Notes: generated from the letters alone by a model not told the origin. A stretch of 64,000 nucleotides of DNA from a bacterium (GCA_037200965.1 JBBCGK010000001.1:433992-497991); one strand, 5' to 3'. Counted from the stretch's first letter, positions 18,046 through 18,409 are shown. A program made the numbers and translations.

Positions 18046-18409
18046 GCCCGCGCACCACTTTAGCCTCAACTCTTTTGGAAGGAGCGGAAACTAAAGTACT
18101 CGACGATCAAGACATGTTGTGAATCCGGATATCCGTTCCGATCTTCGTGGAATTATCCACAAAGAAAAGTCGGGGGCGTCTCCGTTCTACAACGTCATCC
18201 ATCAGCTGGCCCAGGTCTTCCGGGCCGCAGATGTATTTCTGATCATCGTTCACGAACTCTAACGTGCACTCGGAAGCACTCGGATAACGATACTTGAACG
18301 ACCTCAACTCTCTGGTCGTGAGCATCGTATACAGTACTTCGAGGTCAAGTTTTGTTCTTTGCTGCGTCATTTTGCTCTCCATATGTTGAGGACAAAGTGG
18401 TGCGCGGGC
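18046..18409 (-). other. Hairpin-enclosed ~315-nt insertion in 23S domain IV (helix-63-like region), IVS-like, carrying a small ORF
   Basis: Near-perfect inverted repeats GCCCGCGCACCACTTTAGCCTCAAC (18046-18070) and GTTGAGGACAAAGTGGTGCGCGGGC (18385-18409) replace the E. coli segment around positions 1710-1750. Confidence 0.55.
18107..18381 (-). CDS. Small ORF (91 aa from MESKMTQQ...) encoded inside the 23S hairpin insertion; function unknown
   Basis: ATG lies 4 nt after the stem arm; the ORF fills the insertion; no recognisable domain. Confidence 0.3.

What the first reader, a model, noticed from the sequence alone, without database searches (positions are those of the whole stretch)
18046..18409. 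23S helix-63-region replaced by a ~23-bp perfect stem enclosing a ~315-nt insert with its own ORF (IVS-like element)
Inverted repeats GCCCGCGCACCACTTTAGCCTCAAC and GTTGAGGACAAAGTGGTGCGCGGGC flank an insertion where E. coli 23S has a short variable helix (~1710-1750). An ATG begins 4 nt after the stem and a 91-aa ORF of unknown function fills the insert.

Long perfect stems of this kind are RNase III substrates. This may be an excised intervening sequence leading to fragmented 23S, or a retained expansion segment that doubles as an mRNA. Either is unusual.
Basis: partly seen in the sequence, partly recalled or inferred. Interest (0 to 1): 0.6.

Follow-up and report, generated by a model that had tools for sequence, protein, structure and literature searches.

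The report
Gene-carrying insert capping 23S helix 63
The 23S rRNA gene of this uncultured ultra-small (CPR/Patescibacteria) bacterium carries a 350-base insert at the tip of helix 63, and the insert belongs to a previously uncharacterised family of small-gene cassettes with near-invariant inverted ends that sit on hairpin tips of 23S genes and their introns in many CPR lineages.

Summary
The 23S gene is on the minus strand. Rfam places a 339-nt surplus in the loop of helix 63. The closing stem is 25 bp, with one G·U pair and one U/C mismatch. It consists of 7 bp of host helix plus 18 bp that belong to the insert.

The insert is not a one-off. An 18-mer from its 5' arm found about 20 more elements in metagenomes, in CPR 23S genes that are 79-89% identical to each other in the flanking rRNA. 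All share the same layout:
- arm CACCACTTTGTCCTCAAC
- a GGAG ribosome-binding site and a start codon
- a sense ORF of 59-123 aa
- a CTTTAGT motif
- arm GTTGAGGCTAAAGTGGTG

They sit at helix 63, at helix 25 (a classical IVS site) and on hairpin tips inside group I introns. Two compensatory changes and U·G wobbles support RNA pairing of the arms.

One close pair of elements gives dN/dS of 0.08 for its ORF, so that cargo is a real gene. The window's own 87-aa ORF has no detectable homologue.

Best reading: an IVS-type element, probably released by RNase III and then translated. Excision was not tested. CPR rRNA insertions are known as a class; this family appears undescribed.

The parts
14958..20255 (-). 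23S rRNA gene, the host of the element. Exons: 20255-18403, 18052-17864, 17091-16564, 16268-15935 and 15259 to about 15000. They are separated by the H63 element and three further insertions.
   Evidence: Rfam RF02541. Exon blocks come from blastn against insert-free CPR 23S genes L016, L060 and L064.
18403..18409 (-). Host H63 stem, 5' strand (GCCCGCG).
   Evidence: Aligned to the H63 consensus stem by cmscan. This part differs between hosts of related elements.
18385..18402 (-). Element 5' arm, CACCACUUUGUCCUCAAC.
   Evidence: Inverted repeat. The identical 18-mer occurs on about 20 other CPR 23S hairpin tips.
18377..18380 (-). GGAG Shine-Dalgarno-like motif, 6 nt upstream of the second ATG. 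In the predicted fold it pairs with GCUCC at 18080-18084.
   Evidence: Sequence. The motif is conserved in the family. Fold.
18107..18370 (-). ORF of 87 aa plus stop (91 aa if counted from the ATG at 18382). Orphan protein P0001.
   Evidence: No Pfam hit. No homologue in 5.8 billion clustered proteins or in 1.84 billion cluster representatives. An ORF of this size occurred in 0.4% of shuffles.
18090..18096 (-). CUUUAGU motif just after the stop codon. It is the 5' strand of a local hairpin that competes with the 5' arm for the 3' arm.
   Evidence: Inverted repeat I2. Motif and hairpin are conserved in the family.
18053..18070 (-). Element 3' arm, GUUGAGGCUAAAGUGGUG.
   Evidence: Identical in 15 further unique complete elements. 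One-base U·G variants occur in L128 and L163, and a doubly compensated variant in L032.
18046..18052 (-). Host H63 stem, 3' strand (CGCGGGC).

Best explanation
The segment 18053-18402 (minus strand) is an intervening-sequence-type element that caps the reduced helix 63 of the 23S rRNA gene of a Parcubacteria-group CPR bacterium.

Shown:
- It belongs to a family with one fixed layout. That layout is an 18-nt 5' arm, a GGAG site, a small sense ORF, a CUUUAGU motif and an 18-nt 3' arm complementary to the 5' arm, with a conserved G·U and a U/C mismatch.
- Family members sit only on hairpin tips of 23S transcripts: H63, H25 and loops of group I introns.
- The arms pair as RNA.
- At least some cargo ORFs are protein genes under purifying selection.

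Inferred:
- The element is transcribed as part of the pre-23S RNA.
- The helix of about 25 bp (7 bp host plus 18 bp element) is cut by RNase III, as in classical IVSs. This leaves a 23S that is split at H63 but held together by the remaining stem, and it frees a small RNA.
- On that RNA the 3' arm can re-pair with the nearby CUUUAGU...CAAC segment. This local 3' hairpin of 11-20 bp would expose the 5' arm and the ribosome-binding site and cap the 3' end, so the 87-aa protein can be made.

The function of the protein is unknown. The window's ORF is an orphan cargo in a conserved chassis.
For: Position and anatomy:
- H63 loop replaced by 339 nt.
- 25-nt arms.
- The MFE keeps the long stem; z = -9.4.

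Family:
- About 20 elements with the same termini and layout occur in CPR 23S genes whose flanking rRNA is only 79-89% identical.

Sites:
- H25 in L129 and L032.
- Group I intron hairpins in L126 and L132, and probably L143.
- Most sampled relatives have a short H63.
- H63 is reduced in CPR (PMC9297842) and tolerates insertions in E. coli (PMC2441807).

RNA pairing of the arms:
- The L032 arms CATCACTTTGTTCTCAAC / GTTGAGACTAAAGTGATG carry two C-G to U-A double changes and keep the mismatch.
- L128 and L163 carry an A-to-G change that gives U·G.

Local 3' hairpin:
- Predicted in nearly all members, at -10 to -22 kcal/mol.
- 11-bp consensus.
- The inner pairs differ between members but stay complementary.

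Coding:
- A sense ORF covers 78-97% of the interior in 16 of 17 unique elements, each with p <= 0.044 by shuffling.
- GGAG lies 5-12 nt before the start.
- L163 versus L165: 23S flank 1 difference in 132 nt, arms identical, ORF 32 of 222 nt different with 23 at third positions, dN/dS 0.08.

Precedent:
- The Coxiella IVS (428 nt, carries an ORF) is excised by RNase III (PMC4990558).
- Non-intron insertions in CPR rRNA are presumed to be of this type (PMC11270868).
Against: - No RNA evidence. Neither excision, fragmentation nor translation was observed. The only short-read contig found is from a metagenome and is colinear with the gene.
- No RNase III gene motif was found in the 64-kb window. 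The rest of the genome was not examined.
- RNase III needs a helix, not a sequence. It therefore does not by itself explain why the 18-nt arms are kept at sequence level. Part of that invariance is ascertainment, because the 5' arm was the search key.
- The window's ORF is not detectably related to any other cargo (leave-one-out HMM rank 102 of 699). Its coding status rests on analogy, on its length (p = 0.004) and on the GGAG site.
- The interior is unusually structured for an mRNA (z = -5.3 to -6.1).
- In the predicted precursor fold the GGAG site is paired.
- In Coxiella the IVS ORF is apparently not translated (PMC4990558).
- Host genes in the window rarely show a Shine-Dalgarno motif (7 of 33, with crude start calls).
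Confidence: 0.55

Rival explanations
1. Retained expansion segment. The 350 nt stay in the mature 23S as a rod-like extension of H63, the site of eukaryotic ES27L. The ORF is incidental, or is read from the precursor only.
For: - H63 is the ES27L site and tolerates insertions in E. coli (PMC2441807).
- The interior is strongly structured (z = -6.1; family mean about -3.4).
- The GGAG site is paired in the predicted fold.
Against: - The same chassis sits inside group I introns, which are spliced out, and at H25. Its conserved features therefore do not serve one ribosomal location.
- A conserved ribosome-binding site, a start codon and a sense ORF are present in all but one of the complete members.
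- dN/dS is 0.08 in one close pair.
- Long near-perfect stems are typical of excised IVSs, not of expansion segments (established knowledge).
- Insertions in CPR 16S genes were reported absent from transcripts. This is Brown et al. 2015 as cited in PMC9297842; the original paper was not read here.
Confidence: 0.15
2. The element is primarily a DNA-level mobile element, like a MITE or a cassette. The invariant 18-bp termini are recombination or cleavage sites recognised by an enzyme supplied in trans, for example the GIY-YIG nucleases carried by related H63 inserts. Removal at the RNA level is only what makes the insertion tolerable.
For: - The termini are kept at sequence level across hosts with 79-89% identical flanking rRNA.
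- At least three kinds of site are occupied.
- The cargo ORFs are unrelated or fall into several families: A, B and orphans.
- The H63 inserts of L122 and L081 share the outer 10 bp (CACCACTTTG / CAAAGTGGTG) and encode GIY-YIG proteins.
- The insert interior is 47.8% G+C against 56.9% for the window.
Against: - There are no target-site duplications. The flanks are complementary, not direct repeats.
- No transposase or nuclease domain was found in these cargos.
- Arm variants are of the RNA type, U·G wobble and compensatory pairs.
- None was found in viral contigs.
- There is only one copy in the window.
- Host sequences at the junction differ, which argues against sequence-specific homing (the same argument is made for GIY-YIG insertions in PMC11270868).

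This rival is compatible with the best explanation for the RNA stage. It differs on why the termini are conserved.
Confidence: 0.2
3. An intron-like element that is removed and the exons re-ligated, either by self-splicing or by a protein-dependent route. The 23S would then stay in one piece.
For: - The same gene carries three other insertions, one of them a group I intron by Rfam and two with LAGLIDADG ORFs.
- Most CPR rRNA insertions have been read as introns (PMC9297842).
Against: - No Rfam intron family matches the element, even at E <= 10.
- It sits on a variable helix tip rather than in a conserved core site, unlike the CPR group I introns (PMC11270868).
- The closing helix is an extension of the host helix, which is the IVS pattern.
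Confidence: 0.07

Closest known systems
Bacterial 23S rRNA intervening sequences (IVS) that carry an ORF, e.g. Coxiella burnetii (helix 45, 428 nt, S23p ORF) and Leptospira
   Same: - An extra segment replaces the tip of a variable 23S helix.
- Its ends form a long stem that continues the host helix.
- A small ORF fills the interior.
- Distribution among relatives is sporadic.
- In Coxiella, excision by RNase III without re-ligation has been shown (PMC4990558).
   Different: - The site is H63 rather than H25 or H45, although family members do use H25.
- The ORF is not of the 23S_rRNA_IVP / S23p family.
- A strong ribosome-binding site is conserved here, whereas the Coxiella ORF lacks one and is apparently not translated.
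- The termini are conserved at sequence level across distant hosts.
- There is a conserved alternative 3' hairpin.
- The same chassis also sits inside group I introns.
Catalogued insertion sequences in CPR rRNA genes (Brown et al. 2015; Tsurumaki et al. 2024, PMC11270868)
   Same: - Same organisms and same gene.
- That survey found non-intron insertions at helix tips, presumed some to be RNase III IVSs, and noted that GIY-YIG ORFs lie in non-intron insertions.
   Different: - The survey annotated only ORFs with Pfam domains and classed the remainder as uncharacterised, ORF-less insertions.
- In the text I could read, it does not describe conserved inverted termini, a conserved ribosome-binding site, small domain-less ORFs, or an H63 family.
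Free-standing homing-endonuclease ORFs lodged in peripheral loops of group I introns
   Same: - An ORF cassette occupies the tip of a hairpin of a structured RNA gene.
- Some members of this family sit in exactly such intron loops.
- Related H63 inserts carry GIY-YIG genes.
   Different: - The cargos here are 59-123 aa with no nuclease domain.
- The cassette brings its own inverted arms and ribosome-binding site.
Eukaryotic expansion segment ES27L
   Same: It emerges from the same helix (H63) on the solvent side of the large subunit (PMC2441807).
   Different: ES27L is retained in the mature rRNA, is non-coding and is not closed by a near-perfect stem of about 25 bp. Retention was not tested here and is less likely.

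Membership tests
23S rRNA intervening sequence (RNase III-excised IVS) | Extra sequence replacing the tip of a variable 23S helix, relative to homologous genes | tested here: met
   cmscan shows the H63 loop of 3 nt replaced by 339 nt. Most of about 100 sampled 23S genes have 40-67 nt between H62 and the conserved ACUGUUUA motif, against 389 nt here.
23S rRNA intervening sequence (RNase III-excised IVS) | The ends pair into a long helix continuous with the host helix | tested here: met
   25-nt arms with one G·U and one mismatch. Compensatory changes occur in a family member.
23S rRNA intervening sequence (RNase III-excised IVS) | Excised from the pre-23S by RNase III without re-ligation, giving a fragmented 23S | not testable with these tools
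   No RNA data were reachable. The Logan contig comes from a DNA library.
23S rRNA intervening sequence (RNase III-excised IVS) | Located at a known IVS site (helix 25 or 45) | tested here: not met
   The window's element is at H63. Family members L129 and L032 are at H25.
23S_rRNA_IVP (PF05635) IVS-encoded protein | The ORF matches the Pfam model | tested here: not met
   No Pfam hit better than E = 0.16 for the window ORF, and none for 18 family cargos.
Group I intron | Matches the covariance model of the catalytic core (RF00028) | tested here: not met
   Not found in 18030-18425 even at E <= 10. RF00028 does match elsewhere in the gene, at 16313-16529.
Homing endonuclease gene (LAGLIDADG or GIY-YIG) | The ORF carries a nuclease domain | tested here: not met
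   Window ORF: none. The neighbouring insertions do carry LAGLIDADG. The related H63 inserts of L122 and L081 carry GIY-YIG.
Transposable element with terminal inverted repeats (MITE / IS type) | Terminal inverted repeats | tested here: met
   18-bp arms conserved across elements.
Transposable element with terminal inverted repeats (MITE / IS type) | Target-site duplication and a transposase, in cis or in trans | tested here: not met
   The flanks are complementary host stem strands, not direct repeats. No transposase domain was found in the cargos. A trans-acting enzyme could not be searched for.
rRNA expansion segment (ES27L-like) | Retained in the mature rRNA | not testable with these tools
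   No RNA data. The intron-borne copies argue against a role in the ribosome.
CACCACUUUGUCCUCAAC cassette family (defined here) | 5' arm, GGAG plus start codon, sense ORF, CUUUAGU motif and 3' arm GUUGAGGCUAAAGUGGUG, on a host hairpin tip | tested here: met
   All parts are present in the window's element in the same order and spacing as in 15 other unique complete elements.
Cargo protein family A (GKTIKSV...FxDG motif) | Detected by a profile built from the other members | tested here: not met
   In the leave-one-out HMM test the window ORF ranks 102 of 699 (E = 110), whereas L124 and L145 score E of about 1e-4.

The most novel reading that the evidence does not exclude
A previously undescribed class of 'rRNA-hitchhiking' gene cassettes in CPR bacteria. 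These would be small protein genes with interchangeable cargos in several unrelated families, embedded in a conserved RNA chassis. The chassis lodges on hairpin tips of 23S rRNA or of its introns, borrows the rRNA promoter for transcription, and is released by RNase III. It would then switch from the long closing stem to a local 3' hairpin, which unmasks the ribosome-binding site. Expression of the cargo would thereby be tied to rRNA synthesis and processing.
Probability: 0.35. Interest if true: 0.75.

Novelty: new variant of a known kind. Interest (0 to 1): 0.6.

Why it matters
Insertions in CPR rRNA genes have so far been sorted into introns with homing endonucleases and a remainder of 'uncharacterised, ORF-less' sequences. 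This finding shows that part of that remainder is an organised family:
- It has a conserved RNA chassis carrying real small-protein genes.
- It is found at several hairpin tips in distant CPR lineages.

If the chassis works as proposed, it would be a way of expressing a protein from inside an rRNA transcript. That would give bacteria with a single rRNA operon and tiny genomes a class of genes transcribed at rRNA level.

It also matters for practice:
- These ORFs are masked by rRNA annotation.
- The inserts distort automatic 23S boundaries.
- H63 would be added to the list of sites where bacterial 23S rRNA may be fragmented.

Tried and rejected
- **Sequence homologues of the ORF.** The word-indexed search of 5.8 billion clustered proteins found only the ORF itself. 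Exhaustive phmmer against 1.84 billion representatives added only weak hits to single repeats of long RCC1-repeat proteins, which I judge spurious.
- **Domain and structure libraries.** Pfam gave nothing for the window ORF or for 18 cargos. A profile search of PDB sequences gave nothing.
- **Structure prediction.** AlphaFold2 models of the window ORF (pLDDT 60.7) and of a family-A cargo (pLDDT 66.1) were of low confidence. Foldseek against the PDB found nothing significant.
- **Profile searches with family alignments.** These returned only the members themselves.
- **A visual motif match.** I saw a possible match between the window ORF and family A and then rejected it, because the leave-one-out HMM does not detect it.
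- **Similarity to the GIY-YIG cargos.** None.
- **Known RNA families.** None in the insert.
- **Viral contigs.** No copy of the 3' arm.
- **RNA-derived contigs.** Looking up a spurious antisense ORF across the junction found only the DNA-library contig.
- **More close pairs for dN/dS.** Cluster members gave no further variants.
- **Chance matches.** About half of the 41 metagenome hits to the 18-mer were chance matches inside protein genes and were discarded. The 10-mer matches in L036 and L099, and the 3-mismatch matches to a native 23S segment, were also chance.

Full report
**1. The observation**

Rfam finds a bacterial LSU rRNA gene on the minus strand, 20235->15891 (4345 nt against a 2925-position model). 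It also finds a group I intron, a 5S gene and an interrupted 16S gene.

A cmscan of 17880-18620 aligns H62 and the hairpin that follows it, model positions 1752-1778, which is H63. The 3-nt loop of the model is replaced by 339 nt. The first 12-13 bp of the stem occupy the consensus H63 stem.

The inverted repeat is real: 18046-18070 / 18385-18409, 25 nt, 314 nt apart. As RNA it gives 17 pairs including one G·U, then a U/C mismatch, then 7 pairs. Finding a second copy of the arm with 3 or fewer mismatches is expected 0.02 times in this window by chance.

The ORF lies on the rRNA-sense (minus) strand. It gives 91 aa from the ATG at 18382. It gives 87 aa from the ATG at 18370, which follows GGAG with a 6-nt spacer and is the start chosen by gene callers. 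Folding energies are far below shuffled controls, with z = -9.4 including the stem and -6.1 for the interior alone.

**2. Source and host gene**

The identical sequence lies on a 960-kb contig of a PacBio co-assembly of deadwood metagenomes, JBBCBH. It also lies in a short-read contig of a DNA library from the same study.

The closest 23S genes in my sample are Kaiserbacteria/Paceibacterota MAGs at about 84-85% identity. The host is therefore a Parcubacteria-group CPR bacterium.

Comparison with insert-free relatives shows the following structure:
- The 23S exons are 20255-18403, 18052-17864, 17091-16564, 16268-15935 and 15259 to about 15000.
- Besides the H63 insert there are three more insertions.
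- Two of them carry LAGLIDADG ORFs, and one is a group I intron by Rfam.

**3. The insert belongs to a family**

A scan of species-representative genomes with an H62 motif returned about 120 loci, mostly CPR.
- Most have 40-67 nt between H62 and the conserved ACUGUUUA motif.
- About 15 CPR MAGs have 90 to more than 530 nt there, always closed by long, nearly perfect stems.
- Two of them (L122, L081) encode GIY-YIG proteins and share the outer 10 bp, CACCACTTTG / CAAAGTGGTG, with the window.

A metagenome scan with the 18-mer CACCACTTTGTCCTCAAC returned 41 loci. About half are chance matches inside protein genes. The others (22 loci, 17 unique complete elements including the window's) share one layout:

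5' arm, then 0-25 nt, then GGAG(AAGTGG), then ATG or GTG, then a sense ORF of 59-123 aa, then a stop, then (GTT)CTTTAGT, then 12-20 nt, then the 3' arm GTTGAGGCTAAAGTGGTG.

The host bases next to the arms differ from host to host (GCCC, GCCCAATG, GCCTCTG, CTGAA and others) and are always complementary. The element boundary is therefore CACCAC...GTGGTG, and the window's '25-bp stem' is 7 bp of host plus 18 bp of element.

The flanking rRNA of these hosts is only 79-89% identical, and the element interiors do not align at all.

Sites occupied:
- H63 in most cases.
- H25 in L129, and in a variant in L032.
- Hairpin tips inside group I introns of the 23S gene in L126 and L132, and probably L143.

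A covariance model of the 3' end finds only L032 as a clear member among 100 loci of the unbiased genome sample. The family is therefore uncommon.

**4. RNA structure**

The 5' arm was my search key, so its invariance is partly ascertainment. The informative cases are the variants.
- The H25 element of L032 has arms CATCACTTTGTTCTCAAC / GTTGAGACTAAAGTGATG. These carry two C-G to U-A double changes and keep the G·U and the U/C mismatch.
- L128 and L163 have an A-to-G change in the 3' arm that gives U·G.

These are RNA-type substitutions and support pairing of the arms in the transcript.

The 3' arm can also pair with the nearby CUUUAGU...CAAC segment.
- This local hairpin is predicted in nearly all members, at -10 to -22 kcal/mol.
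- It has an 11-bp consensus.
- Its inner pairs differ between members but stay complementary: AUC/GAU, GC/GC, GUCU/AGAU, GUU/AAC.

The two conformations exclude each other.

In about half of the members, including the window, the GGAG site can pair with a CUCC in the 3' spacer. Interiors are more structured than shuffled sequence, with z from -0.6 to -6.6 and a mean of about -3.4.

**5. Coding**

In 16 of 17 unique complete elements a sense ORF covers 78-97% of the interior. Each has p <= 0.044 against shuffles, and the window has p = 0.004.

One close pair exists, L163 and L165:
- Their 23S flanks differ at 1 of 132 nt.
- Both arms are identical.
- The ORFs differ at 32 of 222 nt, 23 of these at third codon positions.
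- There are 22 synonymous and 10 non-synonymous differences, giving dN/dS = 0.08 and dS = 0.72.

That cargo is therefore a protein gene under purifying selection, and the arms are kept as strictly as the rRNA.

The cargos are heterogeneous:
- A core family A has the motif GKTIKSV...FxDG. In the leave-one-out test L124 and L145 score E of about 1e-4, and five others are marginal.
- A second family B consists of the L132 and L032-H25 ORFs (BLASTP E = 2e-5).
- Several are orphans.

The window's ORF is an orphan:
- No homologue in 5.8 billion clustered proteins or in 1.84 billion cluster representatives.
- The RCC1-repeat hits are spurious.
- No Pfam hit.
- Not detected by the family profile.

AlphaFold2 gives only low-confidence models. 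For the window ORF the order of elements is beta, alpha, three beta strands, alpha, with pLDDT 60.7. Family A is a beta-meander followed by a helix, with pLDDT 66.1. Neither has a significant structural neighbour.

**6. Mechanism**

Shown:
- The anatomy of the element.
- The family and the sites it occupies.
- RNA pairing of the arms.
- A real gene in at least one lineage of the family.

Inferred: the element is transcribed within the pre-23S RNA, and the helix of about 25 bp is cut by RNase III. This is what happens to IVSs in Coxiella and enterobacteria (PMC4990558; the enterobacterial case is established knowledge). The cut removes the insert and leaves a split 23S.

The conserved alternative hairpin and ribosome-binding site suggest a further step. 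The released RNA would refold, the 3' arm would be captured locally, and the start region would open for translation.

The copies inside introns show that the conserved features serve the element itself and not a ribosomal location. This speaks against a retained expansion segment.

RNase III alone does not explain conservation of the arm sequence. A DNA-level role in spread, or a specific factor, remains possible.

I could not test excision. The only short-read contig is from DNA. No RNase III motif lies in the window.

**7. What is known**

CPR rRNA genes are known to be full of insertions. Tsurumaki et al. 2024 (PMC11270868) found them in 82% of 23S genes. That study classed them by Rfam intron models and Pfam-annotated ORFs, presumed short non-intron ones at H25 and H45 to be RNase III IVSs, and left the rest as 'uncharacterized ISs that ... 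did not encode an ORF'.

H63 is usually reduced in CPR (PMC9297842). It tolerates insertions in E. coli (PMC2441807).

I found no description of conserved termini, a conserved ribosome-binding site or small domain-less ORFs in these insertions. The finding is therefore a new, organised variant within a known phenomenon.

**8. Verdict**

The main result is the family. The window's insert is one member, with an orphan 87-aa cargo. Interest is 0.6.

Noticed in passing
window 15260-17863 (minus strand): The same 23S gene has three more insertions. The first is 17092-17863 with a LAGLIDADG_1 ORF (17187-17726). The second is 16269-16563, a group I intron without an ORF (Rfam match 16313-16529). The third is 15260-15934 with a LAGLIDADG ORF (15323-15778). 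Because of the last one, the Rfam global alignment ends at 15891, although the true 3' exon runs to about 15000.
   Followed up: partly
window 1-2093 (minus strand): The 16S gene is interrupted by an insertion of about 730 nt (838-1570) that encodes a LAGLIDADG_2 protein (ORF 740-1483). It is also unlinked from the other rRNA genes. It lies about 12.7 kb downstream of 23S-5S on the same strand, with cell-envelope genes in between (FtsW/RodA, sugar transferase, epimerase).
   Followed up: partly
window 19962-20015 (minus strand): A 54-nt insertion in domain I of the 23S (Rfam model position about 228) appears, by eye, able to fold into a near-perfect hairpin of roughly 20 bp (GUGUUCC GGCUCCUCGA UUCG UCGAGGGGU GGAACAC). 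No folding was run on it. It is a second, ORF-less helix extension in the same gene.
   Followed up: no
L122:4133-4430 and L081:3971-4299: The H63 inserts of a Wolfebacteria MAG and of an 827-kb CPR chromosome encode GIY-YIG proteins of about 85-96 aa (Pfam E = 1e-16 to 1e-18). They share the outer 10 bp of the closing stem (CACCACTTTG / CAAAGTGGTG) with the window's family but differ inside. This may be a wider superfamily of H63 elements.
   Followed up: partly
L032:3198-3494 and L032:4764-5257: One MAG (GFS_4946) carries two elements in its 23S gene. One is a family variant at H25 whose ORF is homologous to the intron-borne ORF of L132. The other is a 529-nt insert at H63 with related outer arms and no clear ORF.
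   Followed up: partly
L003, L009, L019, L053, L073, L107, L113 (H63 region): Further CPR MAGs, including Saccharibacteria, have H63 extensions of 90-205 nt closed by long perfect stems of unrelated sequence and without ORFs. H63 looks like a general hotspot for such hairpin extensions in CPR.
   Followed up: no
window, 33 long ORFs: Only 7 of 33 putative host genes show a GGAG-type motif upstream of the (crudely called) start, whereas the element family keeps a strong one. The insert interior is 47.8% G+C against 56.9% for the window.
   Followed up: no
L007, L020, L030, L061, L067, L096, L114 and others, about 480-540 nt upstream of H62: A native, conserved 23S segment (GCGYTGAAGCTAAAGGGGTGACCC) resembles the element's 3' arm with 3 mismatches. 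This is probably chance, but the arm's likeness to rRNA sequence was not explored.
   Followed up: no
window 1-64000: ARAGORN finds no tRNA gene anywhere in the 64-kb window, not even next to the rRNA genes.
   Followed up: no
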